A DNA stretch of 57,497 bases, filler included, from Sphacelaria rigidula (GCA_964200075.2; 6 parts of 6 records of this genome joined end to end with filler, not necessarily neighbours in it), one strand, 5' to 3'. Positions 11,920 to 57,497 are shown, counted from the first letter of the whole stretch. Made by a program: numbers and translations. Notes: generated from the sequence alone by a model not told the origin.

Positions 11920-13395
11920 GAGCCTCATACACGAAGGAAACCCAAACTCGGCGATCTTTGATCAAGTCAGACGCCGCCCCCGAATAGCATATGCAGTGTG
12001 GTGCCACTGTACATGCCAACAACATAATAACCTCATCTATCAACGAACCATCTTGTCCTCTGGACGGATAGGCCCACATCTTTTCATCGCGCCCAACAAG
12101 GCACACAACGGATATAAAAATACACAGACGTTGAAGGGAGTGTCCTTCGTATATGAGGCTCGCCATCGCCAGTCGCCGACGAAGCAAGCATAATATTAAC
12201 GTTGTAAGACGGGCCTCACGAAAGCCTCATACACGAAGGAAACCCAAACTTGGCTATCTTTGATCAAGTCAGAAGCCGCCCCCGAATAGCATATGCAGTG
12301 TGGTGCCACCGTACATGCCAACAACATAACAACCACATCTATCAACGAATGATCTTGTCCTATGCAGGGATAGGCCCACATCTTTTCATCGCGCCCAACA
12401 AGGCACACAACGGATATAAAAATACACAGTCTTTGAAGGGAGTGTCCTTCGCATATGAGGCTCGCCATCGCCAGTCGCCGACGAAGCATGCATAATATGA
12501 AGGTTGCATGACGAGCCTCACGAGAGCCTCATACACGAAGGAAGCCCAAACTCGACAATCTCTGATCAAGTCAGAGACCAACTCCGAGTAGGATATGCGT
12601 TGTTGCTACGGTACATGCCAACATGACTTAATCTATCGATGAATCATGAATCATCTCGCCCTATGGGGGTATAGTCCCAATTCTTTTCATCGCTAAAATA
12701 CCCCACGCAACAGATAGCAAATATCAAGAACTTGAAGGGAGTGTCCTTCGCATATGAGGCTCGCCGTCGCCGATCGCCGGCGAAGTAGCAAGCATAATAT
12801 GTATATTCTTAGATGGGCCTCGCGAGAACCTCATACACGAAGGAGATCCAAACTTGACAATCTTTGATGAAGTCAGGGGCCGCCCCCGAGTAGGATACGC
12901 GTTGTGTTGCTACGGTACATGCCAACATTACCTAATATATCGATGAATCATCTTGCCGTATGAAGAGATAGGCCCACGCCCACATGTGTTCGTCGCGTTC
13001 TGCAAGGCACGCAACGGATATCAAAACATAACAATCGCGAAGGGAGTCTCATTCGTATATGAGGCTCGCCCTCGCCAATCGCCGGCAAAGCAGCCAGCAT
13101 AGTATTTATATTCTTGGATGGATATCATGAGAGCCTCATACACGAAGGATATCCGAATGTGGCAGTCCTTGATCAAGTCAGAAGCCGCCCCCGAATAGGA
13201 TATGCGTTTTTGCTACGGTGTACGCCACCACAACCTAACCTATACAGATGAATCACCTTGCCCTACGGAGGAATAAGCCGACATCTTTTCATCGCCTTCT
13301 GCAAGGCACGTAAGGGATATCAAAATACAAAGACCTCGAAGAGAGTCTCCTTCGTATATGAGGCTCGCCATCCCCAGTCGCCGGCGAGGCAAGGG
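11920..13395. repeat. Tandem array of five ~302-bp units
   Basis: Units start at (g)agcctcatacacgaagga near 11920, 12222, 12524, 12826 and 13131. Each also contains the inverted motif tccttcg(t/c)atatgaggctc. Confidence 0.95.
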
Positions 13396-13470
13396 CATTC
13401 CAAACTCGAATAAGAGATTAGGCGCCGACAAGGTATGGCTTGCTGAAACATATGTTCGCATGGCCGAACT

Positions 13471-16400
13471 ATGGTAAAGCTAAAGGATGTCACACCCCAA
13501 TACGTATTTGATATCACCCAGGACTGTGGGGCGAGACCGACGTCGAGTAATGGGGAGGACATCAGCATGGAACCTCGAAAACTCACTGTACAAAGCCGTA
13601 GACGCATTTCTCAACGCCGTGGAGTCAGAGGAAGAGTAGAAGTGGCTGAATACAGAGGCGATATGCGACGAAATAAGGGAGCTCACGAGGTCTCTCCTCC
13701 AGAAACACCCGCGGTTTGTGAACTTGATTGTCCCAACCTGGCGACTGACAGAAAGAGGAGGAACGGTGATAGCTCGATAAGCGACAGCATCCGTGAACTT
13801 TGGGCAAAACTGTCCGAGCCAGATGTCGTCACCCCTGAGGGAGGAAGGCAAATCCGCAGGTCCGTTTTAGGCGCTATGTGCGGGAATCCACAACATATGC
13901 AGATGCCAGAGAGTTCATTGGAGGACACCTGAGCCGAGAAGCGTTTGATGGCGCGAAGAGGAGGCGAGAGGATGCAATGGAAAACGGAGAGCCGCATCGC
14001 ATGTGAGTCACGATGACTGAGGTGGATATCGATGATGCGTATACGAACAGTACTCCCTCCCATAAGTGCCACGGGCAGACGCACTCATCACAACATCCAC
14101 CAATCTGAAGACGGAATACTTTCATGAACGCTCAGTCGCGATGATGCGTCGGCTGCCGAGCATCCCGTGTGTATGAAAATAGACTCTGATGCGTATCCAC
14201 CCCCCTCGCGTATCCGGCACCCACCTATGCCATGCTGCCGTCTCCCAGCGCGTCCGACAGGAAGCCGCGATCAGATCGACTGGAGGTCACGCGTCCCCAC
14301 GCACTGGTCTGGATTGAGAAACGGATCACATTTCACACCCAGCCGTCTCCATGTGAGGTGAAATGGAAGCACGACTATTCACCCGGCAACCACAAACGCT
14401 CAGACGCAGACCATTCGCTGGATTGCGTTAAACCCGAGCTATGCTCTCGTATGCCTGTTCGGTACTTGATGGGCACGAAGCTGAAGCTCTACGACGACAT
14501 CATGGCAGAGATGGAAGAGGCGGTGAGACAACATGTGCCACACAGGTGTCGCATAGGAGTTTATGCGTAACCATGGGAATTGCTCGACAATATAGACGAT
14601 CGCATCGTTGTTCATACTATACTCGGGAAAACATATCCTCTACCCCATCCATGACTGCGGGACGCTAAAACCTCCCGCAATGGGCAGGCGATGACACCTC
14701 GCTCTAGTGAATGTTTTCATAAGTGAATCTCGTCCTAATCGTCGCTCTCCTGCCCGTCATACACGTAGGAGGTCCCCAGCGAACACAGATGTGCAGCTAA
14801 TGCCATGTGCAGTATTGGTGTAAGAGTATCGACATAGGAATACACGCTTGCTCATCCCCTTCCAGGACAACAGGGAGAGAGCGTGAAGCTCAAGGGGAAA
14901 ATATTATTATGATTCTGGTTTGTCATCAAAGACGGGCGTTTTTCTTCTGCATTTGTGCACCCTCGCTCAGTTTCAAACGGGTGCAGTGGAGGTGAAGAAC
15001 ATCAGTCGAAGAGCCTTCGACGACTTGATCCCCTTCTACGTTATCGACCAGTCCAATCGATCGTGCCTGTGCGCCACCTGCTACAAGGCTCGTTACCATC
15101 GCTCTGTACGACCTGTGGCCTACGCTTCATGAAGGACTCACCCCCGATTCCGCTTGCACGTGCGAATGCAACCTCTGCAAGGATGGCGGGTGTGTGGATT
15201 ACCTCCCATACACCTCACGTAAATCCATCCACGGCATGGCCAACTTCAGCGAGAAGCACATGTGCAGTAAGGAGTATCTGTACACCTCGCGTGACGGAAT
15301 GCGAGTGGAAGCACACAAGTCGACGTGCGCAGGTGGGAGCTGGATCGAATGCACTAGGATGAAAAATGTGTTCTTCGGGTGCCCACGACACAAGGGCGGG
15401 ACATCGGGGGAGGCTTCGGCCGCTTCGGACGCAAACTCGAGAGGAAGGCCGGCGCCCGGAGAGATCCCGTGGAATATGTACACCGATGTAAACGAGAGAG
15501 GTTTGGCGACGACGGCGATAAGGCGTCCGAACAACCGCCGGGAGGGGGGAGCCGAGCACGCCGACGCCGAGTACGACCCGCGAGCGAGATCGAACCCGAG
15601 GAAACGACAGGTTTGAATTTAAATGATTAAAGGCTACAGGCCTTGCGACATCCAACTTTTCACAACGAAATTATGCAGAGTGGCAACAATCTGAGGGAAA
15701 ACGAATGCAATCTGGGGAGCCATTGATGTTCTCAGAAGAAAGCCTAATCACCACGGGAGTTTTTTTCAACACGCAACAATTACCACCACAACGGGACAGA
15801 GAAGCCTCAAACGGAGTTCGCAAGGCATTACATCGTCACACATATACTGTGGACGTCATACAGGTAGGAGGCTCCAAATGGGAACGATCCCGACCACGAT
15901 ATGCAACCTCTACCATCGCGTGAGAATCTCGTTGCGTGGTCAATCTCGCACGACATACCGTCCGAAGTCAGCGACGCTGACCCATGGGGAAAGGAAACAC
16001 CCCCATCTTGAGGTCGAGACTCCGAATATACTATGTATCACGTGTTAACTTTCGTGTTGATGAGGGCGAGCGCTAAAGACACACGGATCACCACCACCCA
16101 ATACAGCGCGCCCGACCAACGGTACCCTCACCCCCCCCCATAATTGCTCCGTCTCGAAAGGGATGCGTGGTCAATGGTCAAATGACTAAGGCAAGCAACA
16201 AATGAGTACGCCCCCCCCCCCCCATAATTCCCATCCTGAACCGTCGCTCATTATCCTCCACAGGCCGTCGCGGAAAAAAGAGGGTCAGTGGACGATTTCA
16301 TGCTGGAGTTTAAGGAGATATTTTACCGGTTCATCATGCACAGAATACAATACAAAATGCAGCCCATCGCCTTCAACGACAAGAAGCACACTTTGAAGGA

Positions 16401-19060
16401 CGGAGAAGTGCTGTTGATTGTTGACTTCCAGGAACGACTGCAAGTGAAGCAACAAGACCAAGTTCAGAGCCAACACTGGAACCACGACGCGACGACCATT
16501 TTTCCCTGCTATATCTTGTTTAGATGGGGTGGGCGTGTGTGGGCGTACTCGTTCATCATCTTGAGCGACGACATGGCTCAAGATAATGCATGGGTACAAA
16601 ACGTATTGTCGAGTTTACTGAGCGAAGACATCCCGGCCTTACTTCGGAAGATCGGGGCGGTTTCCATGACCACCGCCACCCTACTCAGCGACAACTGCTT
16701 CAAGCAGTTCAAATGTCGTTACCATTTCGGTTGGGTTGGAGGTGCCATGATACTCGTCCTAGGCGAGGGCGGAGTGACCACCGAAAACAGAGTACACATC
16801 GAACACCATTATTTCGGTCCGAGCCACGGGAAGAACTCCTCGGATAGCGAAGGTGCGGAAACGAAGAGATACGTGCGGACTATGGTGAACAACCAGCAGT
16901 GAACCGTGGTGTCGAACTCGGAGGATACGTGCCAGAAGCTAGAGAAGGGGCTAGGCTTTTTCCTTCGAGAGGCTACCACCGAAGAGTGCACGACGTTTTT
17001 CGAGACAAGGAATGGTGAGGGCGGCGGAACGGAAGAGTTGTGCATGACAAAAGTGAGTCGTAGCCTGAGCTATGCGCGCGGTACGTATTCCTCATGCCAT
17101 TCGGTGTTTGCATGTTAAGGCCTGTGAGGCACACAGTACATGGAAAGTCCGACCCTGACCGTCATATATGTAGGAGACCCAATAAGTGATGAAGAGGCCG
17201 GTGCACTGATTCGCGTGCTTTTTCTCCCCCCCCATCCGCCCTAAATGACAAATGAGTACGCCCCCCCGCCCCCCGCCCTCCTAAATGAGGAGTAGGAACG
17301 GTGCTCCGTATCGAAAGGGATGCGTTGTCACTGTCAAACGACTAACGCGAAAAAGGAATGGGTACGCCCCCCCCTGACGCACATGAACTTGGACATCACA
17401 ATCTCAGATCGGCGTGGACTGTGCACATCTCAATAATCATCTTCCTTGCATGCTTCTACAGGGATTCTGCGCGCGTTCGCTTCAGCAGTTACAGTTGTGT
17501 TTGTCGGTAAAAACGATGTCACAGCGAACGCGCACGGGACCCCTAGAGGAAGTAACGCGCGAGGGAGGTAAGTATTGGGATCTGCGAAGTCTCACGTCTA
17601 CGCCTATATGAGGTCGTGGTGTCCAATTTCGTGTGCTTCAGGGGCGGAGGGGAAGGGGGCGACAAAAAGCACGCGGATCCGTGCGTCAGCCTCCTCGTGG
17701 TACCCCTCACCCTCATCCGTTCTTGTGCCTCATACGTATATGAGGGTTAGGGTCGGAATTTACATGCATTGTGCGCCAACGGGCAGTCTTCACCATTGCG
17801 CCTGGTTCACTAACGCGTATCCCGCCCACCTACTCCGCTTCTTTACAGACGTGGATCGGCGAGGGGCGAAGCACACCGCAGCAGAAGACGTTCCTACTCA
17901 CGAAGCAGGCGAACACCCTTCTCGGAAGACAGTTTTCTGTTTGTTGGTGAAGAAGACGTGACACCTGCTGTGCGCCAGGCGGCCCGGTCGGTAGCAAAGG
18001 AAATCGAAGTCTCAGGATGCCAAGCTATTGGTAGGGTAGCAGCAACGGGCACACCAGGCATCATCGCTGCCTACCAGCTATCTTGCTTGTGAGTTCCCCC
18101 AACAACAGACGAATTCGCCAAGCTTTTCCGATAAATGGATATACCTTCACTTCCGGGATTGTTATCGATGGCAACGTCTCCGAATACACCCCTAACAACT
18201 GCTTCTCCCCCCCCCCCACATCTACGCGGTTTCCCGTACAGCTGCGAAATGTGCCTCGATCGGCACCCAGAGTGGGGTCCTCTCATCCGCCGCGGGATCA
18301 TGTCCGGACCATCCAAATACAGCAGAAAAGAGGTCGGCGGAGATGATGATGAGAAAGTCAGCGCCAGGGAATACCACCTGTGTCAGCTGTTCGACCATCT
18401 CCCGGAACGCCTGCCCTATGGATCTATTGCTCTTATTCGAGTCGACCCCGCGCAACACCGGGGTCGGGATATAGTGCCAGTGCTGGTAGCCCGGAAAGCG
18501 CCGAGCCCGTGGAGTTCGTCTGACAACTCACACGAGGACATGTTCTCCAACGGAGACACGATTCTGTGGATGGTTGATCTTGAGCGGGCCGCAGAAACGG
18601 AGTGTGTTCATTACGCGGTTCCGAATGAGGTTACCGCCGACGCGAGCATACGGGCGGTCCCCCTCAGTTGTACAGCAGGATTGGGACAAGGCCTCGGCGG
18701 GTACATGGAATCGGTAGCAATGCAGGACGGGGGGAGCAATCATTTCAAATTACGAGATGACGGAGTCGCGAATGCACGCTCGAATGTTGTTCTTTTCTCG
18801 ACAAATCCCTTATCCGCCGACAGCGACTTTGAAGCTGAACCGCTTTCCAACGAGGATATCCGCCGGTGCCCAGTACGACCCAAGCTTTTCAGCATTGGAA
18901 CAGAAGTCGAAAAAAAGTTCATAGGACCGTATCCGTCCTAGGGTGCGAAACTATGGAGGGTCAAGAAAACGCTTAGAGCCAGTGTCACTTCGGTTCAAAC
19001 AGACCGCAAGTCGAGACGTCACAGATACAAACTGCATTGGGAGGGGGAAGCAAGCCTTCT
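13471..19060 (+). pseudogene. Intron-split Sola2-like DDD transposase gene, decayed (exons ~13471-14002, 14249-14522, 14971-15610, 16264-17052, ~17462-17567, ~17850-19060)
   Basis: Core motifs IVDFQE..QDQVQSQHW, ILSDDMAQD, LSDNCFKQFK and HYFGPSHGKNSSDSEG..TKR. Upstream RKPRSD, LYDD..ISRRAFDDLIP..RSCLCATC and Cys clusters; downstream YSCVC. The first three introns are GT..AG and phase-consistent. Lesions include frameshifts near 13920 and 15090 and a TGA at 16900-16902. Confidence 0.8.
16146..16223 (+). mobile_element. Short LINE 3'-end fragment in a transposase intron (others at ~17290-17375 and 24340-24389)
   Basis: Encodes APSRKGCVVNGQMTKASNK* followed by gtacgccccc, matching the ORF2 end of the LINE at about 28915-29010 (minus strand). 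Confidence 0.8.
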
Positions 19061-19063
19061 TCT

Positions 19064-19101
19064 GAGTCATCCTACGATAGGGGGGGGGGTATTTTGGGCC
19101 A
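19064..19101. repeat. Terminus of a dispersed repeat, also at 57426-57463
   Basis: gagtcatcctacgata(g)n.tattttgggcca is present at both sites. The first copy truncates the transposase tail and runs into a gap. Confidence 0.75.
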
Positions 19102-19339
19102 NNNNNNNNNNNNNNNNNNNNNNNNNNNNNNNNNNNNNNNNNNNNTTAATTAATTAANNNNNNNNNNNNNNNNNNNNNNNNNNNNNNNNNNNNNNNNNNN
19201 NATCGTTTGACGCTTTGCCATTTTTTTGTGTACATCTTCACGCCATCGTCCTAGGTCCGAAAACGGGGGTCACTCGAAAAGGATACATTTTCTTTTTTAA
19301 TTTTTCGTTTGTCGTACTTTGAACCCCCCCCCCCCCCCC

Positions 19340-20282: not shown

Positions 20283-23200
20283 CTACTTCTTCTCCAGAAG
20301 GGCATTCTGGTAAGCGACAATTTTGGGTTCGGATGAAACTCGCTCGACCAGAGAGGTCAACAGCGGATAATCGTCGACGATGGTGGCCGGGATGCCGTCC
20401 AACACGCCCTTCTTCATCCACACCAAGCGACAAACCACCGCGATGTCTCCAATAGACAGCTGAAGGACACCATTGAACACGACAAGAAAGAAACAGAGTC
20501 AAACCAGCCGAAAACGACAACAAGGGGTATACGAAGGGGACAGAGACAGGGTGGGCGGACGGATGGGCTACAGACATCAACCAACAGTCAAAATATTTAC
20601 GTCACATATAGTATACGAGTATATACCTGGAACTTGGCGGTAAAGTTGCTACCACTGTCTCAACAACTGCTTCGGAATCTGCGCCAAGCCTCCGGAGTGT
20701 TACCAAGTTTTGAAATACGAGGAAGCTTCCAGATCCAGTTAATGCAAGATGAAATACAAGGAAGCCCCTCATTTTTGACGACAAAAACTTTCTGGGGCTG
20801 CAGTACTCCGCTGGACAAATAGCCTATCTGATACGCATTGTTGTTTGGCACGAGGAATCCAGCCGCACAGCAACAGCCGGGAACCAATCAGCTCTCCACA
20901 GAGCGGACGCAACATCACAAGCTCACGCACAGAGCTGTTCCGCGTAATTTGTCCCCCATAATGGAGCTCTACCCTCGTGCGTGACTGGTAACCGACCTTG
21001 TTTCCCGCAAAGTATTCACCCCCCGCACTCTTGAGCATCTTCTCCAGATTGCCCAGCCACCTCGGGAGAAAGTTTTCGGTCATCTCCTTTCGCAGTGCGG
21101 CCTATCCAATCATGCAGAACGGAACGTTTGGAAACGTCGTGGGCAATGGATGATCAGGGCAGGGAAATCTCCGCATGTGGCAAGTACACCGCGGGTGTCA
21201 TGTCGCTAATTCAGTACCGCTACAGTTTGAGGGTGCGAAGCGCTGGGATCTCCGTGTGCCGCACAGTCTGAGTGGTTATAGGAAAACGTCGGGCGAGAAC
21301 ACAGTAGCAAACAGACACGCACACACACAAACACAGAAGACAGCGAAACGCATGGCGGATCGCACCCGCCCAGTACCACACCAAGTGGCATACGCTCAAA
21401 TCTGCCCAGTAAACATCTCCAGCGGTTGCTGTACATCGACGACTGCGATCTCATCAAATGTCACAAGTTCTAAGACTCCGATTTTTTTATTGGGAAAGGG
21501 GTCGGTAATTTTGTGCTTTAACGCTGTGTATCTCTCGAGCCGGTCGCCCCGGTGGCTCAGTTGGTAACCTCGAAGCCTCCCGACGGTTGGGTCGTGGGTT
21601 CGAATCTCGGGGCGATCTGGGATTCCTTCTCACGCAGTGCCCAACAGTGGAGAGCGACTATGTCGTGGGTACACAAAATTCGGCTCAATGGTCGACGAGG
21701 AAAAGAGACTGCTGAACCCCTCTCGCGATAAAAAATGAAGCCAAGCACCGCAGAAGGAGGGTGGAAAACTAAAATAAACAAAAAAGAGAAACTCCTGTGT
21801 TGGGTTTCCTCCTGTGTGACCCCGGCTGGTGCGCCCACATGTACCGAGAGGTGTAGAGCGGTGTCCAGCGTGGATGGGACGGTAACACACATGTCTCCCA
21901 ACGATCTCCACAGTGGCATGTTGCTCGAACCGCTGCCGCCTTTTCCTAGAAGAGATGAAGCACGTCGCAATATCAAGTCTACCAAAACCATTCCCTCGAG
22001 TATTTTCCATTTGCACGGTACCATGGGGCTCAACCCGGATGGTGGGCGACGAACCCTGTTTTTTCGGGATAATCTCAACGCAATTCCCCGAGGATACATC
22101 TTGAACCAACCACAACAAACCAGGGAGTGAGATCTTCCTCTTCTTCGCTACCCTCGTATGAGTTTACCGGTCTGTTGATCCCTACGACACACACAAGAGG
22201 GTTGTTCATCTCGTACGTATGCCGTACCACAATAAGACACAATCAAAACGAAAATCAAGACAGGGGTTGTGCCCTGACCTTCTCCTCTTCCGCCGCGAAC
22301 ATGGTGGGGCGGAGCTGCGTGTGATGGTCGCCTACCGCCTCGACTGCGGCGTCGGCGAAGGCGGCTTGGATGGCATCCGTGGGGTAGAGGTCTGTTGTGT
22401 ATTCGTAGGTCACAAAAGGTCACAGGTATGCACCATACAGCAAGTCGATAACGAAAAGTCCATCAGTCGAAGAAATGAAGAAGGGGGCGAGGAATGGCAA
22501 GGCGTGGGGATGAGGATAACGGATACAACGGCAGAGATCGACCATTGTGGAAGCTGCAAGGTACAACCCACCAGTACCAGAATATAAGACCTGAACTTGC
22601 TGCTCCCTCTTCAGCACTTGTCAAGCGACCACCCATCATTGACCACAGGATACACTTTCACACCACACGCAGTGCATGGGACAAGGCCATGCCATTCATT
22701 TCAGGGCAGTGTTCCAACAGCGGCATCGAAGGTGCTTTCGACGGCTGCGTAAATCGTGTTGTACGTGTTCCCCCGTTACGAAAGGCGCACCGTAAAATCA
22801 TGCCCTCGACAGATGGTGTGGTAACTATGCATCGAACCTCTCTCAACAGGAACTCTAAAAAGTAACGATAACGGCGGGTTTTCAAACACTTTGCCGATGT
22901 TATTGTCGTCCGTGTTCCGGCAGCACTGAACGACCGGGCTGACATTTACCATCTATACGTCCAGTGTGGCCAATGCTCAGCTTTTTGGCTCGGGGAAGAG
23001 TACTGCAGAGGGATGGTGTCGAGTGATCATAAAACAAGGTGTCGTTGACAAGCGAGATTGGAAAATGGAAAACGGACGAGCACACAGATGCCCCCCACAC
23101 TTGATTGAAAAGATGATGCAGATCCTGAAGCAACCATTCGTGTGTTGGAGTAAAACAAGCGACTCATTGTAGTAGCATAACTATGACGAGCTCAGATCCG

Positions 23201-26200
23201 CCGAATACCCGAAGGTACACGCGTTTCTGGCTTCCAAGTACACTGGAGGATCACGGTGACGGGCTGTTACCTCCAAGCTTGCCCACGTAACGCAGCTGAG
23301 CTGTACTCTGGGGAATGACGACGCCGTCCACCTCCAGGATGGGCAGTTGGTTGTACGGCAGAGCTGTTTTTTTTTTGTGATCGATATTAAGGTTGCGGGA
23401 CGCAGGGCAAAATAGTGACACACACGAAACGAGACGTCAAAATAACAGCAGCGCACGACGTAGTATCGAGTAGGAGAAACAACGTCAGATGCAATAGCTC
23501 AGAACTAACCGGGGAAAAAAGAAAATCACCACCATGTTCACATCCTTTCATGGCGATGGTGAGAACATTTCATTAACAATCAGGTTGTACTGACCAATCA
23601 ATGTATCTTTCCTCCCCATTTCGGGAGAGTCAGACCCTATTACTGTACGGATCCCCCTCAGACACGACAAAAATAGTTGTTATTGGATTCGCAGTTGCCG
23701 AGAGCTGAGTAGACATTCGCGGCCACCAGGACGACCAAAAGCAACAGCTACGCTGATCGATGTCAACTACGTAGTATTGATAGTATAGAGAGAAATCGGC
23801 GCGGGAAAAAAACTGCCGAGCGACGAACGTACGGTATCTATCACTGACGCATAACTGCCCATCAACTGGCTCTAAGAGGTATATCGCTTCAATCGGTGAC
23901 GCGAACTGTTTTTCTAAACGTTAAACGTTTTTTTTTGCTTTTTCGCGGTAATCGTTGCCGCGGTCCCGAGAAATCAAGGGAGTTGCTATATTTGCCTCGT
24001 ACTTTTCCCCGTCGGATTGGGATAAAAATGTTTCGCTTGGGATGGGAATGGCAATTCCAGCTTATCGAGGTAACATCAAGATATTTCCGTGGGGGGAGTG
24101 ATAAATATATGTATATGTATATATATTATACTCTTCCCCTTGTCACACAGATAAAACCATTTTCCACCCAACAACCATTCCCGTTCCATCCTCAAACAAA
24201 CATCAAACCGGATTCTCGAAAATTAATTAATTAATTATCTTCATTATTAGCGCCCCATCGTCTCGAAAATAAAAAGCCACAAAACAAATAAAAACGGAGT
24301 ACAGTTGGGCTTCCCCCCCCCCCCCCCCCCCCCCCCCCCTGGTCAATGGTCAAATGACTAAGGCAAGCAACAAATGAGTACGCCCCCCTGGGATCAAAGT
24401 TAGCCCCAACCCCCTAAAGCAACGAAAAACCCATCCCATTTCCCATCCATTTTAGTATACATGATTTTCCAGTAAGAGTGAAAAAAATTACTGTGATACT
24501 GTACTGCTGCTGTAAAAATACCGCCGTAAAAGTATCCCAAGAAGTCACTTGGAATTTAGTGTTAGGTTGGGTCGGCACTCATGAATTTTAGTGTTGGTTT
24601 GGTCGGCACTTCTCACCCATTATTGTTGTCAAACGGTAAAAGCTGGAGCTACCCGGAGCTACCCCACGATCCACTCCCAAGACACCTGTTTGAGACTGTA
24701 CTGTATGCCCTCCAAATACTTAAACCTTTTGGAACTCACAATGGAAAATTGATAATTTGCAATTGACGGTTTTTGAGCAAGATATGGTTGATTGCTCACA
24801 GCTCAGACGCGAGAATATTTGCCCACTGCGTATTTTTCAGACCCATGCAGGTGACAAGTGGAACAAAAAAAGAAGGTTTCTCCTATTTAACGATGTGCCG
24901 TACCAGACACGGGAACCCATTAATGTTTTTTCAATGGAATGTTTTATATTGTTTTGCTAATTATTGTCGATGGATACAATTGGACACACTCCATCCGTTG
25001 CGTGGTATGATTGGACGGACCTCACCCGACCTCTGCAGGGAGGACAAACTTTCTGCACCCGCCGCGTGGGCTACTGGATTCGAGATCTTCTTCGTTTTTC
25101 CATTTTGACAATGATTGCCGTCGGCCTTTCCTGTTTCCATATTTTCCTCTTTGTCAAAGCTTTTGATAATAAGGCGTTCGACCCGGGGACAGGAGGAGAG
25201 GGTTCCAAAAGGGTTAATACCGTTTTCGCAAGACTCCCACCATCAGCACGAAATCCGTTTCAATTGCCCGTGTTTCGCCAAAATTAAAAACCAAAGTATT
25301 TGCACTGGTGGATGCCCGCGTAAGGTCAGCACACGAAAATAATTATTGCACTTTCGATCAGTAGCTTTGCCTTCGGGATTTTTTACCGCGGCTGGACCAT
25401 CCGCAGTGAAACTTGGCGCACTAGTCTGACACAACACCTGCAGGCAGCATGTGAAACAATCGGCGGCACGTTCAGGCCGTGCACAAAACGAACAAAACGA
25501 TCAGCGAATTCGGGCAATACCGCCCTCGAAACGGCTTTCCCGCAGACCAGACTGTGTGCACCGTGAGTGCATGCACACCTGGAGACGCCGGTGCACCATA
25601 CCTTCCACGTCATGAACAGCTAGGCGGCTGCTGCGCCGGCAAACAACATCGATCTGTACTGGGAAACCCTGTGGAAAATGATCTGCACAGAACTCCTTTA
25701 CATTACTCGTGGTCCTTCAGTTCGAGAGGCACCGTCGTACACGCGCCGCCAGGGCTTCAACGCACTGAAACTTCGGGCCATATATCATGTCACGCAAAGT
25801 TTTCAAGTCTATTTTGTTGAATCATGGGTTGCGTATTGCAGGAGTCTCAACGATATTAACCCTTAGACCGCGAGGATAGTCTTCCGTTGAATCGGCATCG
25901 ATTTCAAGTGAAAAAAAAAGTATGCATGGTCAGGAAGACTAACCTCGCGGTCTAAGGGTTAAAAGGAGATCAGATTTTGTTACAAAACGTTCACCGTTGA
26001 TTTCTGTTCGAGGACAAAGCACCATGCATGAGGCAATCTAACACGGGATTGCAAAAAATTAACGTAAGACAACTAAGGCGGGACTTGACAAACTGCGGAC
26101 GGATTCGTTTTTGAAGATAGGCGAGGCAGTAGACTTGTAACCGGCGTTGTGCTACAAACGTTCATGGTTGACAGTATTTGATTTGGGTGTGTACGACGAG

Positions 26201-27108: not shown

Positions 27109-27524
27109 GATGTTTTGCGTCGTCCCTGTGTCTGTTGCGGTCGTGATGTTGCTGCTGCTGTCGCTGCTTTCTGGCTCGTTCAGTAGGGCAGATGACTGGG
27201 ACAGTGGCGAGGAGTAGTAGCCGGTTTCGATGACGATACTTCTTTGAATGAAGTGTGTAATGGGGTGTGTGTACCGTAGTGGTAGCGCTGCGGTCGGTAT
27301 CGGGCGGAGTTTCCGCTGTTTCTTGCGGCGGATTTACATGGGATGTTGTTTTTCGGAACGCCGGTGCTCCAAATACATACCATTACTATTTATATTATAG
27401 CCACCGCTCCTGGCGTTTGGTGTAACAAACCGGGAAGATATGGCCACCGATGTGCCGACGACTAGCCCCTGGCACCAAATCGTCGAATAGGGTCCTTCTT
27501 CTCACATGTCAGATGCATCTCAGC

Positions 27525-27875
27525 CGATCGCCACGGTGGCTCAGTTAGTAACCTCGAAACCTTCTGGCGGTTGAGTAGTGGGGTTCAACTCCCGTAGCTA
27601 TCTGGGATTTTTTCCGACACCGCATGCCCAACAGTGGAGAGCGACTATGTCGTGGGTACACGAAAATTCGACTCAACGGTCGACGAGGGAAAGGGAATTA
27701 ATGCTGAACCCCTCTCGCGATGAAAAATAAAGGCAAGCACCCCAGAAGGAAGGTGGGGTACTAAAAAAAAAAAAGAGAAAAAGCTTCTACGTTGACCTTC
27801 CTCCTGTGTGACCCCGGCTGATGCACATACTGAAAGGTGTAGGCTGGCGCCTAGAATAAATGGGCGACAACACAC

Positions 27876-28044: not shown

Positions 28045-28489
28045 TATTTATCAAGGGGATTCCCGCCCTTTTCAAAACCTCTTTTGGCAGGGCATTGGCG
28101 CTATAACGACCAGTTCTGAGTCCTATCGTGAATCGTGAAGCAATTTTGGACAGATCGAACCTTCGATCTGCACGCCGGGTCAGAAATGCGGCGGGTCTGG
28201 AAGTGGCCGTTAGTCTAAGGTCTCTCTGTCATCTGTAATGCCACAGATAGGACGCAACAAGGCGTCACGACACTTACACACCCAGCCCCGAAAAAACTCG
28301 CACAGACACCCGCCATTCGCGCGCATTAGTTTCACCGCTACAGTAGCCCTTGCTAGTCTACATACGGCAGTCTTAATTTGTTTGACCGAAATCCGTTCTG
28401 TATTGGACGAATGGCGGCGGCGTGCGTGTCAACAACAACCGAAAACGCATCGTTGCTGACCGTTTGTAAGCGTGTACAACGATAGTAAT

Positions 28490-28634
28490 GTCGCCACGGT
28501 GGCTCAGTTAGTAACCTCGAAACCTTCTGACGATTACGAGTAGGTCGTGGGTTCGAATCTCGGAGCGATCTGTTTTTTTTTCTCACACGATGCCCAATAG
28601 TGGAGAGCGACGATGTTGTGGGTACACAAAATTC
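28490..28634 (+). mobile_element. tRNA-derived SINE, family A, 3'-truncated
   Basis: gtcgccacggtggctcagttagtaacctcgaa...gggttcgaatct...gtggagagcgac.atgt.gtgggtacacaaaatt. Confidence 0.88.
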
Positions 28635-28802
28635 CACAGGCACCGTAGGTAAGGTACCGTACCGAGCGTACCCCCGGTATTTACCGGGGTATCCCATACC
28701 NNNNNNNNNNNNNNNNNNNNNNNNNNNNNNNNNNNNNNNNNNNNTTAATTAATTAANNNNNNNNNNNNNNNNNNNNNNNNNNNNNNNNNNNNNNNNNNNN
28801 CA

Positions 28803-30790
28803 ATGAGTGGCGTGTTTTACAGCGTCATCGTCAACCGACGCCAACGCCATAGGGGGTCTGCCTTTACAAAGCCGGGACGGGGTACATCAGGTTGTCGCCG
28901 GACCAGGCTACTAGGGGGGGGGGGCGGAGGGAGGGGGGGGTACTCATTTGTTGCTCGCCTTTGTCGTTTGATCACTGACCACGCAACCCTTTCGACACGG
29001 AGCGCCGTTCCTACTCCTGATAGAGACACCTCAAGCATTTGGGCGCTCATTACGTTTCTTCTATCAAAACCTTTAACATATAATTTACCCGTCCTGTTTC
29101 GCTCTCTGTGACTACCATCTATTTCCTAGTATGACCACCATTTCCTCCCTACTATTCAATAGTGCATGAAACGATTTCATGCCACCTTTGTTCACGCCTC
29201 GCATTTCCCCCATTAGCACGTCCCGTTCCTTCTTGTATAGGTCACATTCTGTCACTTTATGAATTCTGCTCTCCATTACTTTGCCACAGGGGCGATTCTG
29301 TGCATCTTATTCCCCCTTCACTCGAAAACTGGTGTACCTCGTTCTTCTTTCTGGCAGGTCCAGGCCCCCCACCCGAAATCGCAGTTTCAATCTTTTCGCC
29401 GCGTCCATTGGGCCATGCAGATATGTTTTCATCTCTATCCCCTCTCTCAACCCTTCTTGTATCTGTACATGTTCTTCCTCGTCTACTTTCCGTCTTGGCG
29501 TTGCTTTTCTCCTTACATCATGCTTTAGTTTTGTACCCGCCGCATTTACCTATGGACATTATCTCATCTCGGTTCCCTCCTATCTGTTCGCTTCCTGAAC
29601 AAAAGAGAGGCTGTGTGGTCCGTCCCGGCATGTCACGTCAGTGGTCTCCGGAGCTCCCTGCCCTCGCAAGCCTCACTGTTCACCTGTCAACCTTTCCTTC
29701 CATAATCGATCGCGTCGGGACTCGAACCGCATATATTTTGTTCAAGGAGCGAGCAGTTTACCCATTAAACCAATGAGCGCTGACTGGTTTGATGAGTAAA
29801 CTGTTCGCTTCCCGAACAATATCTTCTTCCATAGGTTTTCGACTACTCTATCCCATCTTGGTCCAGCCTGCCCTTTCGTCATTTTCTTCCATATAACCAT
29901 ATCAACTACAGCTGGCAATCTCTTTTTTCGCATGTTCTTTACGCTATATTGTCCTTTCAATTCCCTCATGTCTCTGTTTTGAGTGGGTACATTCTCAATT
30001 ATACTCTCAATGCTATGCTTCTCGTCGTTTTCGAGGATCCAAGTATTTTCTTAGCTGCTGTCACCTGTAAATACGGGATTTTACACATTGGGGATTACCT
30101 TTGTTATTGGAGATGAGAACCCGGAGGATAGAAATATTCGTATCCACACCAGATCTTTGAAATGTAGTTCCACTCCTTCACCCACGGGTAGCTATTGACA
30201 ACTATTACACGACATATACATTTGGATCCTGATAACCGCCATGTTTGGGTTCTAGGTGAAAAAACAATTTCGGGAAATGTAGATGATCTGATCAGATCGC
30301 CGAAATTCCTCGAAATTGGTTTTTCACCTAGAACCACAACATTTCACTTATCGAAATCCAAATTCGTGTGGCGTGTAGTTGTTGTCAATAGCTACCAGTA
30401 AGTGAATAAATGGAACCGTATTTTGAAGATGTGGTGTGGATACGAAGATTTCAATTCTCTGGGTTTCTCATCCTCAATAAAGAATCTAACCCCAATATGT
30501 AAAACCCCGTGCTTGTACTCTTTACAACCTCTTCATCAACTCCACGTTTCACTCTTATAGTTCTCCTGCATATTCCAGCTTTGGTATAATCGCGTTCATC
30601 GAAATGCATATCTTAACCCCCGTACCTACGTACGAGTCTCTGAGGATCACGTTCATCCTGCTCACATGTGTCTTACCCTTTTTTATTACTTCATTGATGT
30701 GTGCATCCCAAGAACAGTTTTTTAATATCTCTACGTCAAGGTATGTATACTGGTCTACGATCGGCAGCTCCTCTGCTTCCCACTTTACAA
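28803..30790 (-). mobile_element. 5'-truncated, decayed LINE (ORF2 C-terminus plus 3' UTR), interrupted by insertions
   Basis: Minus-strand peptides ELPIVDQYTYLDVEILKNCSWDAH, IPKLEYAGE, KRLPAVVDMVIWKK..RWDRVVENLWKK, KTYLHGPMDAAKRLKLRFRVG.LDLPERR and GAPCRKGCVV..TKASNK*. The 3' UTR is also present at 38404-38490. Confidence 0.85.
30066..30517. mobile_element. Foldback MITE (~450-bp imperfect palindrome) inserted in the LINE; partial copies at ~37485-37685 and 38265-38299
   Basis: Arms pair along their length (acgggattttacacattggg / cccaatatgtaaaaccccgt; gtagctattgacaacta / ttgtcaatagctac) around the centre gatctgatcagatc at about 30292. Confidence 0.9.
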
Positions 30791-36510: not shown

Positions 36511-39219
36511 TGATTCACCAGTTATAATGACACTTTCTAGAACAGCCTCCCCACAGAAGTGGCTCGTTTGGGGAAATAAAATCTACACATGGATCGAAAT
36601 GAAAAAAATCTGGGGGCAATGAGCAGTTGGGAATTCGAACGTTTAGCTTCGTTTTCGCCTGTGTCGTCCATATGAGGCGCTTTATGCAGCCTAAAGCCAA
36701 ACATCAGGCGCTACTTGACCATTTTCTTCGCGACAGTTTTGGGCTAGTTTTGGGGAAGGCTAGAGTAGAAAGTGTTCAATACACCTTTCATCAGGTCTGT
36801 TTCAGTTCCTGAACCAGCTGCAGAATAAACACACCGTTGTATGCCAAAAGCAGTTTTAAATACACAATTATTGGACATTTGAGCCGAAACAGTCGATATG
36901 AAAACCGAACCACGCCAAATCGCCGGTGACGGAAACAATATGAGGGGGGAAATGTTCTCTCAGAATAGACTACACCACAAGCGCTCGTGATCCGAATGGA
37001 ACAAGATTCCCCATACGAACCACGAAGAGTTTGAAATAGTTACCCTAGGAGTAATCATATACAAAACCCAACCCAAAAGTGATCCACTGGAATACATGGA
37101 GATGTAGACTCTGGCCAACATTATTACCTGGGTTTAGGTGCAAGACTGCGGAACAAAGTATGTGCGTGTTACGGCTGGTTGATGGATGGCGGGTCTGCGA
37201 GTATGATCGGTGGACCCCGCAAGTATTTCATCTAGATTCTGCTTCTGCTCACTCAGTGGGAGAGAAGCTGGGATACTGCTCTCCGGTATAGTGAGCAGCT
37301 AAGACGAATGTATGAATGACCACAGCTGCTGAAGTCTGCGTGCCCAGAATGGGAGGAGTCTACGTAGCTTTCTGGTCTCGAGTGCATTACTCTATAATAA
37401 CATTCATTGGATGTGCTGAAAGATGGCCGACACATCAAGACAGAGGTCAGTCTGCAGGCCTGACCCGCTTGCAGCAAACATGGCCTAAATTTCTCGGGAT
37501 TGTGTTTTCACGTAAGACCCCAAAACTTCGCGGTTATCGGGATAAAAAAATGTATGACGCATAGTAGTTGTCAATAGCTACCAGTAGGTGAAGAAACGCA
37601 ACCATACTTCGAAGAACTGGTGGTATAGATACTTTTCAAAGATATAGATTTTGGTTTTTCAGGTTATCATCCTCAATGAAAAGCTCGATCCTCAATTCTG
37701 AGAATCGGCCGCTATCACCTGGGGTGCTTGCTGGGGTGGTGAGCGCCGGGTTCGGTGATATTGCTGAGAAGCAAGTGCTGTTGTGGTTGAGTGCTTGTTG
37801 AGGATGAGGAAATACGTTATAATTTGTATTCATGAATGACTTTGAGAACGATTGAAGCTTATTTTGGTTTTATTTGTAGTAATGTGTGGTTAATTGCTAT
37901 AGTTGAGGATTCGGAAATACATTATACCTCGTGTTTATGAATCGCTTTGAGAACGATTAAGGCTTGTTTTGGGGTGGTTTGCAGTCATGTTTGTGGTCAT
38001 GTGTGCGCATGAAGCATGTCGGTTGAGCGAGTATGATCGTATTTCTTGTGCCGAGTGAAATGCTGACGTACACGTGGATGTTTTGTATCTGTGTGTCGTG
38101 CAGCTCTGGTTAGCAGACTTGATGCATGGCGGCTTCTACAAAGAAGGACGTATTGTATGTGCCGGGTGAAATGCTGTCATTCCTCGAACTTTTACACATC
38201 AAGGATTGACCATTTTTTTTAAGATGAAACAGCCGATCATCTATGTTGAGGATGGTGCTTTTCATTTAGGATGAGAACCCGGAGGATTAAAATCTTCGTN
38301 NNNNNNNNNNNNNNNNNNNNNNNNNNNNNNNNNNNNNNNNNNNTTAATTAATTAANNNNNNNNNNNNNNNNNNNNNNNNNNNNNNNNNNNNNNNNNNNNC
38401 GTAGTGAGTGGCGTGTTTCATAGCGTCATCGCCAACCGACGCCAACCCCATCGGGGGTCCGCCCCTACAAAGCCGTGTGTGTGGGGGGGGGGCGGCAAGT
38501 ACCAATGTGTGAGTTTGCGGTCATCTACTTGCCCTTTTCGAATTCGTCCGTTCATGCCAGATGATATTCGTGAAAACTGTACATCTACGAACGTGGGTAG
38601 TATTCCACCAACACGCGAGAACTTTCAGCGCTTTTTCACGTAGTTGGGAGGTATTTTTACTAAGCACCGGTAACTTCCGAACATTTCTCAGCAAGAAATA
38701 TGGCAAAAAAAAAGAACTATACTCTACAGCGAGAGTAATCACATACAAGTATACCGCAAAAAGTAAAGCGTCTCTCTCTCTCTCGAGCAGACTTTGCTAG
38801 CTACCTCCTGTTGATCTGTTCTTTTGAAGACCCATAATAATTTTCGAGTGGTTGCTTGTTCCTATTGATTGTACTCGGCTGACGGATGGCGGAGTATATT
38901 TTGTTGCTGCGTGGTGCGTCTCTCCGGATTCGGGTGTTCAACAAGTACGCTACGGTGTACATTTTGTACATGGTTGGTCATTTTCCCCCTAATAATGATA
39001 GGAAAAAACATCTTCCGCGTCCCCTCGAACGCACGAACGAACAGTTGATGTAGTGCCGGTGATTTGTTTTCCGACACAACCTGCGATGGATGTTTTGATT
39101 CATATATTGTTTGGTGTCCCCTCGTCCTGAAAATTTTATTTTTGAAAGTAGTTGTTGTTCCAAAAAATCTTGCTGGCGTTTCTCAGACATACGTCAACAC
39201 CTCGCGTGTGTTGACGCGG

Positions 39220-47898: not shown

Positions 47899-47998
47899 NN
47901 NNNNNNNNNNNNNNNNNNNNNNNNNNNNNNNNNNNNNNNNNNTTAATTAATTAANNNNNNNNNNNNNNNNNNNNNNNNNNNNNNNNNNNNNNNNNNNN

Positions 47999-56414: not shown

Positions 56415-56689
56415 GATTCGGGGGGGGGGTGTTGTTGTCCCATTTGTTTTTGGTACTCCATTTTCTTTCTGCGGCGCTTGCCTCTCCTTTTTTATCGCGA
56501 GAGGGCTTCAGCAATCCCTTTCCCTCGTCGACCACCAAGTCGAATTCTGAATTCTGTGTACCCACGACATAGTCGCTCTTCACTGTTGGGCATGGTGTGA
56601 GAAACAACCCCAGATCGCTCCGAGATTTGAACCCACGACCCAGCCGTCAGAAGGCTGCGAGGATACCAACTGAGCCACCGGGGCGACCG
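56415..56689 (-). mobile_element. tRNA-derived SINE, family A, nested in a piggyBac-type mini-MITE
   Basis: Minus-strand A box GGTGGCTCAGTTGG and B box GTTCAAATC. Flanked by ttaacccttag (56399-56409) and by the rest of the MITE (56695-56782). Confidence 0.88.
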
Positions 56690-56848
56690 CCACGGTGCGG
56701 GTAGTCCATCTGGATAACGCATACTTTTTTCAAGTCAAAGTTGATGCCGATTCGGCAGGTGACCTACCCTCGCGGTCTATCGAAAAGAGACCTGAAAAAT
56801 GTTTGTAGATAAGAGTTGATGGGGAACATCATGGAATGTTACAAACTC

Positions 56849-56887: not shown

Positions 56888-57497
56888 TCGACCCGAGGCG
56901 CACGAGACCCTCGGGCGAAGAGGGTGCATAGTTTCCCCTAGGCAAGGTGTGCGTTGGCAGACTTCGAATCGTCGCGGCAGGCGCCGATTTCGACAAGAGC
57001 ACGTTCTGGAAGAGCTCGGTCCACTGCGCACCTACCCCAAAACATATTTTTTTCAGAACTTCATCAACTCTAACATCGAGTAGTCATCCCTGTCAACCGT
57101 TGTGTACGAAAATTTCACTAGGTCAACTGCTCTAAGGGTCAACGGGCCTCTTATCATGCTAGAAGCTAACGTGTCGTGTAACAATTTAAAAGGTGAATGT
57201 CACGCCGGTCGAAAACAACGGTCACTCTCAATCCTGTATTCAACTCTCAATCTCACGAAAACATTGTTGTACATGCATATTTTCGAAGTGAAGTGCAGGT
57301 ATAATGTAGCAGCGAGATACTCGCTTGCTTTGCAGACACGAGCGTGAGCTACGGCCCCTCCTGTAACGCCTACAGCTCGTGAAGTGGTAGGTTTATCTCA
57401 GTACATGACACTTTCTACGATAGTCGAGTCATCCTACGATAAGGGGGGGGTTATTTTGGGCCATTTGTTGCTCGAAATTTCGAGTCAGATCGTCGTT

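What the first reader, a model, noticed from the sequence alone, without database searches (positions are those of the whole stretch)
13471..19060. Intron-rich Sola2-like transposase gene with a long C-terminal extension
Seen: scattered ORF pieces join through canonical, phase-consistent introns (14003-14248, 14523-14970, 15611-16263) into one protein with RKPRSD, CxCxxC clusters and a DFQE / SDNC / HGKxxxD core. Knowledge: this motif set matches my recollection of Sola2-type DDD transposases. Inference: a multi-intron gene with several hundred extra C-terminal residues looks like a distinct stramenopile lineage, which single-ORF annotation would miss. This copy is dead (frameshifts, TGA at 16900).
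Basis: partly seen in the sequence, partly recalled or inferred. Interest (0 to 1): 0.75.

Follow-up and report, generated by a model that had tools for sequence, protein, structure and literature searches.

The report
Dead brown-alga DNA transposon transposase gene
This stretch is a broken copy of a six-exon gene for the DNA-cutting enzyme of a multi-copy "jumping gene" family of brown algae, probably of the little-studied Sola2 kind, so it is an ordinary mobile element with an unusually long, unexplained tail.

Summary
Window 13.7-19.06 kb (+ strand) is a six-exon pseudogene. Annotated Ectocarpus/Pylaiella proteins of about 1190 aa align to every exon (tblastn E 3e-30 to 1e-96).

The copy carries four frameshifts and two in-frame stops (TGA 16900, TAG 18939). 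Other copies in the same organism lack the frameshifts. The 3' end is cut at 19064 by an abundant short repeat and by the end of a 9.5-kb piece of the concatenated window.

The DFQE / SDNC / HGK..D core folds with pLDDT 94 into an RNase H-like catalytic domain. Its best structural matches are retroviral integrase (Z 11.7) and Mos1 (Z 9.6). The three aspartates are near-invariant in a eukaryote-wide family of 1235 representative hits. The gene is multi-copy within single brown-alga genomes, so it is a transposon and not a domesticated gene.

Sola2 membership is plausible. The evidence is the DDD triad, the absence of a Pfam family, 5'-GGC termini in relatives, and a curated Sola2-1_Ec32 family in Ectocarpus noted as having "possible introns". 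It could not be tested by sequence, because no Repbase references were available.

The C-terminal extension of about 330 aa is found only in brown algae here and has no known fold. Overall this is an ordinary element of modest interest.

The parts
13392..13725 (+). 5' region of the element (uncertain). The 302-bp satellite stops aligning at 13391. GGCGCC at 13422 is a candidate 5' terminus. There is weak N-terminal coding similarity in frame 2, with an in-frame TAG at 13637.
   Evidence: reading of ORFs against P0152; inference only
13726..14002 (+). Exon A (..IRELWAKLSEPDVV..EFIGGHLSREAF..). It has two private frameshifts, near 13730 and 13881.
   Evidence: tblastn; other copies carry +A after 13730 and +G after 13881 (table 4)
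14003..14248 (+). Intron 1, GT..AG, 246 nt, phase 2
   Evidence: a contig of another copy spans it (record 25)
14249..14522 (+). Exon B (ASDRKPRSDRLEV..HTQPSP..RYLMGTKLKLY)
   Evidence: tblastn E 3e-30, 63% identity to P0152 243-332
14523..14970 (+). Intron 2, GT..AG, 448 nt, phase 0
14971..15610 (+). Exon C: Cys/His cluster region (FYV.DQS.RSCLCATCYKA.., CTCECNLCKDGGC..). It has a private 5-nt deletion near 15091-15093.
   Evidence: tblastn E 6e-53 in two frames; other copies carry +A,+C,+CAC there (table 4); cysteine columns near-invariant
15611..16263 (+). Intron 3, GT..AG, 653 nt. It holds a copy of the abundant 78-nt repeat at 16146-16223.
16264..17052 (+). Exon D: RNase H-like DDD catalytic core. 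The aspartate codons are at 16423-16425, 16690-16692 and 16843-16845. TGA at 16900-16902 replaces a Trp found in homologues.
   Evidence: tblastn E 1e-96; phmmer 1235 hits; AF2 pLDDT 94; fold matches; conservation
17053..17848 (+). Intron 4, GTGAGT..AG, 796 nt. It holds diverged copies of the abundant repeat (17285-17374).
   Evidence: joins MTK|TWIGEG like P0152 VTK|TWIGED
17849..18088 (+). Exon E (TWIGEG..FLLTKQANTLLGR..AKEIEVSGCQAIG..YQLSC). It has a private 1-nt insertion near 17933.
   Evidence: other copies lack one base at 17933 (table 4); a contig of run X7 covers exactly 17848-18088 (record 29)
18089..18241 (+). Intron 5, GTGAGT..AG, 153 nt, phase 2
   Evidence: a DNA contig of another copy spans it (record 7); contigs of X6 and X7 begin exactly at 18242 (records 23, 30)
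18242..19064 (+). Exon F: CxxC, then the brown-alga-specific C-terminal extension. There is an in-frame TAG at 18939-18941. The exon is truncated at 19064 by the abundant repeat and by the end of the window piece at 19101.
   Evidence: tblastn E 5e-85 to P0152 839-1163

Best explanation
The region is a decayed copy of the transposase gene of a multi-copy cut-and-paste DNA transposon family of brown algae. When intact, the gene has six exons and encodes about 1190 aa. From N to C terminus the protein has a helical region, a Cys/His-rich (probably zinc- and DNA-binding) region, an RNase H-like catalytic core with a D-D-D triad (DFxE ... SD(G/N)C..Q(F/Y)K ... HGK...D), a short conserved CxCxxC module, and a lineage-specific tail of about 330 aa. 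By analogy with integrases and DDE/D transposases, the enzyme would bind the element's terminal inverted repeats, cut with metal ions held by the three aspartates, and reinsert the element; this mechanism is inferred and not shown. This copy cannot do that: it has four frameshifts and two stops, and its 3' end is interrupted. The superfamily is most probably Sola, group Sola2 (my estimate about 0.55 for Sola2, about 0.75 for Sola in the broad sense). Shown: gene structure, homology, fold, conservation of the triad, multi-copy state, decay. Inferred: catalysis, DNA binding, Sola2 identity.
For: Gene structure and homology: seven collinear tblastn segments, E down to 1e-96; homologues read across the joints. 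Family size: 1235 representative proteins at E<=1e-3, 86 at <=1e-10, 13 at <=1e-30. Triad: D54, D143 and D194 of the core are in the 'nearly invariant (90% or more)' list of the 117-sequence alignment. The third D is invariant in 56 of 56 and 20 of 20. Fold: AF2 pLDDT 94, pTM 0.87, with beta-beta-beta-alpha-beta-alpha-beta-alpha order. The aspartates follow strand 48-53, follow strand 137-142 and open helix 191-210. VIA-align gives SIV integrase Z 11.7 (rmsd 2.5, 110 aligned), ASV integrase 11.2, Mos1 9.6, Metnase 9.7, IstA 9.5, Sleeping Beauty 8.8 and Hermes 8.1. The same core is found in the full-length model. Foldseek top rows are all RNase H-like but weak (best E 1.4e-3). Multi-copy: 7 Pylaiella littoralis proteins in one 90% cluster, on 7 different contigs; at least 6 Ectocarpus siliculosus genes in 3 clusters. 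In the window's own organism, 5-15 distinct contigs cover single positions, and most differ from the window copy (table 3). Decay is private: other copies carry the compensating indels at 13730, 13881, 15091-93 and 17933 (table 4). Sola2 leads: Sola is defined by a DDD transposase and a 4-bp TSD (PMC10741241, passage read). Sola1-3 lack Pfam models (PMC5751038, passages), and here no Pfam family reaches threshold. [quoted passage not shown] Two of the three bivalve Sola2 consensi seen start GGCCTG / GGGCCA. Two metagenomic elements carrying this family's gene start GGCTC / (AT)GGCTA. The window has GGCGCC at 13422, just past the satellite.
Against: No Sola2 reference protein or motif description could be compared, so Sola2 is an inference by elimination. 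Ectocarpus holds at least three subfamilies of this gene at about 50% identity, but only one curated Sola-2 family and one Sola-1 family. At most one subfamily can therefore be Sola2-1_Ec32. The 21.5-kb Sola1-1_Ec32, or uncurated families, remain possible homes. A 4606-bp element leaves only about 1 kb for five introns, UTRs and TIRs around a 3.6-kb coding sequence. TIRs and TSD of this copy cannot be seen, because the 3' end is outside the window piece. A controlled scan for TSDs in 66 related loci gave counts that fall fourfold per added base, which is what chance gives. The one complete relative (L066) shows TAAT on both sides only if its left end is placed 4 nt outside the TIR. Foldseek E-values are marginal. 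The catalytic role of the aspartates is inferred from topology; no distances were measured. The 5'-GGC agreement rests on few elements, and a third bivalve Sola2 consensus starts differently.
Confidence: 0.8

Rival explanations
1. It is a DDD cut-and-paste transposase gene, but of Sola1, Sola3 or a not-yet-named superfamily (the 'DFAENY / SDGCA.QYK / HGKG..DG.GG' family partly covered by Pfam DUF7869), and not of Sola2.
For: No direct comparison with Sola references was possible. The only Pfam signal is a sub-threshold DUF7869 match: 4 of 20 relatives, best E 1.2e-4, below the cut-off of 26 bits. Ectocarpus also holds a Sola-1 family with a spliced transposase. Three subfamilies exist but only one curated Sola-2 family.
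Against: Sola1-1_Ec32 is 21.5 kb with AACCG termini and 282-bp TIRs. Sola-3 is associated with TTAA TSDs in the same annotation. The two relatives with visible ends start GGCT, like Sola2 consensi. [quoted passage not shown]
Confidence: 0.3
2. It is a pseudogene copy of a host gene family derived long ago from a transposase (domesticated), not part of a mobile element.
For: Annotated as 'conserved unknown protein' genes in Ectocarpus, with intact ORFs of 800-1190 aa in several species. It has a long lineage-specific C-terminal region. No TIR or TSD was demonstrated for this copy.
Against: Seven proteins at 90% identity or more lie on seven contigs of one Pylaiella genome. Many diverged copies exist in the window's organism, and most carry other letters than this one. 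The catalytic triad is retained. This copy is freely decaying.
Confidence: 0.07
3. The ORF pieces are chance, and the GT-AG joins are an artefact of looking for them.
For: None beyond the general ease of finding GT and AG.
Against: tblastn E values down to 1e-96 in collinear order; 1235 family hits; a confident fold.
Confidence: 0.01

Closest known systems
Sola2-1_Ec32, curated Sola-2 DNA transposon of Ectocarpus (Genome Biol 2025, PMC12477816, supplementary table read)
   Same: [quoted passage not shown]
   Different: 4606 bp is tight for a 3.6-kb coding sequence plus five introns. The window copy spans more than 5.6 kb, partly through repeat insertions in introns 3 and 4.
Sola superfamily, group Sola2 (type element Sola2-1_HM of Hydra; Bao, Jurka, Kapitonov & Jurka 2009, not held: known to me from recall and from passages in PMC3627910, PMC10741241, PMC5751038)
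   Same: D-D-D triad in an RNase H-like core; no Pfam model; wide eukaryotic spread; protein size range (an 888-aa Sola2 transposase is reported in Dictyostelium fasciculatum).
   Different: Sequence similarity to references untested; AT-rich 4-bp TSD (AWWT) and short TIRs not observable for this copy; six exons and a tail of about 330 aa not reported for Sola2 in the passages read.
Pfam PF25273 (DUF7869) proteins of animals
   Same: The same SDG..QYK / HGKG..DG region. The ESM Atlas places the core next to a DUF7869 cluster (score 0.94). 4 of 20 relatives match weakly.
   Different: The window ORF and all brown-alga proteins tested give no match at E<=0.1 to 1. Every match seen is below the curated cut-off.
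Retroviral integrase and Tc1/mariner (Mos1, Metnase, Sleeping Beauty) catalytic cores
   Same: RNase H-like fold with acidic residues at the equivalent topological positions; Z 8.8-11.7.
   Different: 9-16% identity; third residue is Asp, not Glu; a long N-terminal helix and a different zinc-cluster region; no sequence-level relation.
piggyBac transposases (the other DDD, 4-bp-TSD superfamily)
   Same: DDD triad, Cys-rich C-terminal module, 4-bp TSD class.
   Different: Pfam DDE_Tnp_1_7 does not match any protein tested. Ectocarpus piggyBac families are annotated separately, with CCCTT termini and TTAA TSDs.

Membership tests
Sola superfamily / Sola2 group | Transposase with a D-D-D catalytic triad in an RNase H-like domain | tested here: met
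   The three Asp are near-invariant. AF2 core pLDDT 94 with the Asp at the canonical topological sites. Integrase/transposase fold matches, Z up to 11.7.
Sola superfamily / Sola2 group | Significant sequence similarity to reference Sola2 transposases (Sola2-1_HM and relatives) | not testable with these tools
   No Repbase or Dfam library. Bao 2009 and Yuan & Wessler 2011 are not held. The Majorek supplement as held carries no Sola labels. Bivalve Sola2 consensi are cut at 400 letters.
Sola superfamily / Sola2 group | 4-bp target site duplication (AT-rich, AWWT for Sola2) | tested here: inconclusive
   The 3' end of this copy lies outside the window piece. One complete relative (L066) has TAAT on both sides under one placement of its left end. 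A scan of 66 loci gave chance-level counts.
Sola superfamily / Sola2 group | Terminal inverted repeats of the Sola2 type | tested here: inconclusive
   L066 has 28-nt TIRs, GGCTC..GAGCC. L019 has 29-nt TIRs, ATGGCTA... Sola2-1_Ec32 has GGCGG termini and bivalve Sola2 have GGCCTG/GGGCCA. The window has only a candidate GGCGCC at 13422 and no partner.
Transposable element (as opposed to host gene) | Many dispersed, closely similar copies within one genome; decay of individual copies | tested here: met
   (7 Pylaiella proteins on 7 contigs in one 90% cluster; at least 6 Ectocarpus genes). (several distinct contigs per position; private indels and substitutions in the window copy).
Pfam DUF7869 (PF25273) | Score at or above the curated cut-off (26 bits) | tested here: not met
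   No hit for the window ORFs at E<=1, nor for 10 brown-alga proteins at E<=0.1. Relatives reach 16.8-21.6 bits.
piggyBac | Match to Pfam DDE_Tnp_1_7 | tested here: not met
   Absent.

The most novel reading that the evidence does not exclude
Brown algae harbour their own lineage of Sola2-like DDD transposases. These are spliced six-exon genes that have gained a beta-rich C-terminal module of about 330 aa with no relative outside the group. Its last part (F..GT.VE..F.GP...W ... SRRH.YKL.W.G) could be a reader or targeting domain that steers insertion. The family may still be active in the window's organism, because other copies lack this copy's frameshifts and contigs of probable RNA runs end at the exon borders.
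Probability: 0.2. Interest if true: 0.45.

Novelty: new member of a known kind. Interest (0 to 1): 0.3.

Why it matters
Sola elements are among the least characterised cut-and-paste transposons. They have no Pfam model, no structure and no activity assay. This locus and its intact Ectocarpus relatives give a complete gene model (six exons, about 1190 aa) for a brown-alga family that the curated Ectocarpus library could describe only as an ORF fragment with 'possible introns'. They also give a high-confidence predicted catalytic core with its three aspartates. That helps TE annotation in brown algae, where such genes are deposited as 'conserved unknown proteins'. It also offers intact candidates for an excision assay. 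The window copy itself is dead and has no functional consequence.

Tried and rejected
1. Whole-genome search: no genome is held for this window.

2. Literature route to Sola2 motifs. Bao 2009 (DOI and PMC2727372) and Yuan & Wessler (PMC3093488) are not held. The Majorek 2014 supplement as held has no 'Sola1/2/3' label. 'DUF7869' and 'PF25273' occur in no held paper. Bivalve consensi are cut at 400 letters.

3. Profile search for named distant relatives. Cluster look-up of 10 distant hits gave no informative names.

4. Earlier scan notes. Two notes describe Sola2 in Naegleria and gave no sequence to compare. Nothing was found by place or by sequence.

5. Viral contigs: 24 pattern matches, none a relative.

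6. Prokaryote genomes: 8 loci, all in MAGs and mostly on short contigs, read as probable eukaryotic contamination. These say nothing on bacterial Sola.

7. TIR/TSD discovery in 66 metagenomic loci: IR pairs with matching flanks fell 460, 111, 34, 8, 2 for TSD lengths 2 to 6, which is chance. Boundary comparison of locus pairs gave one usable complete element (L066) and two left ends.

8. C-terminal extension: no Pfam family except a DUF7508 match in 1 of 4 members (E 1.4e-3, read as spurious); no PDB sequence match at E<=10; the Atlas gave only 'hypothetical protein' clusters; the AF2 model of P0152 is below pLDDT 50 over 907-949 and 959-1192.

9. RNA support: no RNA holder is listed. X6 and X7 are only guessed to be RNA and belong to one study. 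Their contigs also include unspliced stretches. The exon-border contigs are therefore a hint only, and the joints table was cut before those rows.

10. Depth profile: the summed contig depths are higher at both ends than in the centre (table 2). This would fit internally deleted copies, but the tool warns that contig depth cannot rank parts of a gene, so it is not used as evidence.

11. No second copy of the gene in the window.


Full report
**What the window is.** The 57.5-kb window is not one continuous locus. N(44)-TTAATTAATTAA-N(44) spacers sit at 9502-9601, 19102-19201, 28701-28800, 38300-38399 and 47899-47998. They divide it into six pieces of about 9.5 kb. The finding lies in the second piece and runs up to that piece's end. 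No whole genome is held.

**The observation.** The three proposed introns (14003-14248, 14523-14970, 15611-16263) have GT..AG ends.

A phmmer search of the 212-aa core ORF (16264-16899) against 1.84 billion representatives gave 1235 hits at E<=1e-3, 86 at <=1e-10 and 13 at <=1e-30. The closest named proteins are 'unnamed' or 'conserved unknown' proteins of the brown algae Ectocarpus and Pylaiella, at 52-67% identity.

tblastn of the 1192-aa Ectocarpus sp. 6 protein P0152 maps collinearly on the + strand:
- residues 157-201 on 13750-13884
- residues 243-332 on 14253-14522 (E 3e-30)
- residues 333-548 on 14971-15610 (E 6e-53, two frames)
- residues 548-810 on 16261-17052 (E 1e-96)
- residues 810-1163 on 17846-19064 (E 5e-85, two frames)

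I add two introns. Intron 4 is 17053-17848 (GTGAGT..AG) and joins MTK|TWIGEG, as in P0152 VTK|TWIGED. Intron 5 is 18089-18241 (GTGAGT..AG, phase 2) and joins LSC-F-CEMCL, as in P0152 FSC-Y-CAVC.

**Decay.** The frame changes are explained by four indels: f2 to f1 near 13730, f1 to f3 near 13881, f1 to f2 near 15090, and f2 to f3 near 17934. With these allowed for, all five intron lengths (246, 448, 653, 796 and 153 nt) keep the frame.

I laid contigs of four public runs of the same (coded) organism on the stretch at 85% likeness. Other copies carry +A after 13730, +G after 13881, +5 nt at 15091-15093 and -1 nt at 17933 (table 4). The frameshifts are therefore private to this copy. At many positions every contig (5-15 per position) has a different letter from the window (table 3).

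Two in-frame stops lie inside homologous sequence: TGA 16900 (a Trp in homologues) and TAG 18939. Homology stops at 19064, about 30 codons short of the homologues' ends. At that point an extremely abundant short repeat begins, and the piece ends at 19101.

**Other copies keep the introns.** Contigs from other copies span the following places (table 8):
- intron 1 (record 25)
- the donor of intron 3 (records 3, 11)
- the acceptor of intron 4 (records 6, 15)
- intron 5 (record 7, 24 nt shorter)

Contigs of two runs guessed to be RNA cover exactly 17848-18088 (record 29) or begin exactly at 18242 (records 23, 30), with further letters beyond. This fits splicing of introns 4 and 5. The runs are from one study, their nature is a guess, unspliced contigs also occur, and the joints table was truncated. 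I count this as a hint only.

**What the protein is.** No Pfam family reaches threshold for the window ORFs or for the brown-alga proteins. Distant relatives touch DUF7869 below its cut-off.

Alignments of 56, 117, 82 and 20 family members give the following consensus: C.C..H.N ... C......C....C..C ... H......Q ... DFAENY ... QDE.QSAHW ... SDDL.HD ... FSDGCA.QYK ... EWHFFA..HGKG..DG.GG.VKR. The three aspartates are at D54, D143 and D194 of the window core (nt 16423, 16690 and 16843) and are invariant or at least 90% conserved.

AlphaFold2 with the 117-row alignment gives pLDDT 94.0 and pTM 0.87. The element order is strand 48-53, strands 75-88 and 91-101, helix 108-129, strand 137-142, helix 152-160, strand 178-183, helix 191-210. 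This is the RNase H-like order, with the aspartates at the canonical sites.

- Foldseek against the PDB lists only RNase H-like proteins, at marginal E (best 1.4e-3).
- VIA-align against 48,161 chains gives SIV integrase Z 11.7 (rmsd 2.5, 110 aligned), ASV integrase 11.2, PFV integrase 10.9, Metnase 9.7, Mos1 9.6, IstA 9.5, Ty3 integrase 9.3, Sleeping Beauty 8.8 and Hermes 8.1.
- The full-length P0152 model is confident over residues 165-905 and low elsewhere. Its core gives the same matches.

The enzyme is therefore a DDD member of the integrase/transposase class. Catalysis itself is inferred.

**Transposon or host gene.** One 90% cluster holds seven Pylaiella littoralis proteins on seven contigs. 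Ectocarpus siliculosus has at least six genes in three clusters. Several Ectocarpus species each hold several members. Together with the many diverged copies in the window's organism and the free decay of this copy, this is the pattern of a mobile family and not of a single syntenic domesticated gene. No second copy lies in the window.

**Is it Sola2?** This is the weak point. Sola is defined by a DDD transposase and 4-bp TSDs (PMC10741241, passage). Sola2 elements of dictyostelids have 12-21-bp TIRs, AWWT TSDs and an 888-aa transposase (PMC3627910, passage). Sola1-3 have no Pfam model (PMC5751038, passages).

The curated Ectocarpus TE library (PMC12477816, supplementary table) contains two Sola families:
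- Sola1-1_Ec32: 21,549 bp, AACCG termini, 282-bp TIR.

All other autonomous DDE families in that table belong to superfamilies with Pfam models. By elimination, a DDD gene without a Pfam model in brown algae points to one of these two, and the annotation note fits the present gene.

Circumstantial support comes from element termini. Of the three bivalve Sola2 consensi seen, two start GGCCTG / GGGCCA and the third starts differently. Two metagenomic elements that carry this family's gene have TIRs starting GGCTC (L066; its left end is confirmed by a second copy, L060) and (AT)GGCTA (L019/L021). The window has GGCGCC at 13422, 30 nt after the flanking satellite stops aligning.

Against this: I could compare no Sola reference sequence. 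Three subfamilies exist in Ectocarpus against one curated Sola-2 family. 4606 bp is tight for this gene. The TSD evidence is one element under one choice of end (TAAT/TAAT), against a chance-level systematic scan. I put Sola2 at about 0.55 and Sola in the broad sense at about 0.75.

**The C-terminal extension.** The part of P0152 after about residue 860 matches only brown-alga proteins among 225 stored proteins. It also matches only brown-alga proteins in a region search of the 5.8-billion-protein collection, where 3 of 3864 candidates passed, all Ectocarpales. That search is limited to word-sharing proteins of 655-2086 aa.

A second subfamily (P0208) shares the first 235 residues. A third subfamily (P0156/P0158/P0221, about 800 aa) gave no match. 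The extension has no Pfam or PDB relative and was not confidently folded. What the extension does is unknown; a targeting or reader role is my speculation from its beta-rich prediction and terminal motif.

**Distribution.** 417 of 593 pattern matches in JGI metagenome contigs encode relatives. The window core itself hits 78 of the 88 loci fetched, at E<=1e-3. None was found in viral contigs. Eight were found in prokaryote MAGs, probably contaminant contigs. ESM Atlas neighbours are eukaryotic clusters (Rotifera, Arthropoda), some carrying DUF7869.

**Verdict.** This is a dead copy of a brown-alga DDD transposon gene, probably Sola2. It is of modest interest, because Sola-2 in Ectocarpus is already in print and this copy is non-functional. 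The complete gene model, the confident catalytic-core model and the unexplained lineage-specific tail are the useful outcomes.

Noticed in passing
window 9502-9601, 19102-19201, 28701-28800, 38300-38399, 47899-47998: N(44)-TTAATTAATTAA-N(44) spacers at about 9.6-kb steps. The window is six separate pieces joined end to end, so features cannot be followed across these points.
   Followed up: yes
window 16146-16223, 17285-17374, 19064-19101, 24340-24388, 28926-29003 (-), 57426-57463: A unit of about 78 nt ending in a poly-C run is extremely abundant in the organism's runs (summed contig depth up to about 1e6). It is often tandem there ('goes back 70-80' joints). Copies sit in introns 3 and 4 and cut the gene at 19064.
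   Followed up: partly
window 11921-13391: A 302-bp satellite of five units (77-100% identity to the reference unit) lies directly upstream of the transposon gene. Whether it belongs to the element is unknown.
   Followed up: partly
window ~10905-11912: An element of about 1 kb with long inverted arms (228 nt at 97%, extending to termini CAGTAACAC..GTGTTACTG) around a 466-nt centre. This is a foldback or non-autonomous TIR element. Its termini are unlike those reported for Ectocarpus Sola1 or Sola2.
   Followed up: partly
window 21536-21681, 27522-27665, 28485-28634, 56549-56694 (-): Repeat family with a tRNA-like head (GGTGGCTCAGTTGGTAAC ... GGGTTCGAATC), probably a tRNA-derived SINE. ARAGORN calls no tRNA in the window.
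   Followed up: partly
window 509-1006 and 4778-4903: Arrays with 9- to 12-nt periods ((GTTGTC)n-like at 4778-4903), partly complementary to each other (inverted pairs I23-I25).
   Followed up: no
proteins P0029, P0133 (relatives, not in the window): Two distant family members of 932 and 960 aa carry a weak OTU cysteine-protease match C-terminal to the transposase core (E 7e-4 and 7e-3, below the cut-off). This suggests other lineages add different C-terminal modules.
   Followed up: no
loci L081-L087 (MAGs labelled Sedimenticola, Dysgonomonas, 'bacterium'): Family members on contigs of 1.4-8.6 kb binned into bacterial MAGs. These are probably eukaryotic contamination of the bins. L083 lies on an 813-kb contig and would deserve a look.
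   Followed up: no
protein P0012 (relative, 1644 aa): One hit matched the core in 24 separate stretches and gave odd Pfam hits. It looks like a tandemly repeated fragment of the N-terminal part of the core.
   Followed up: no
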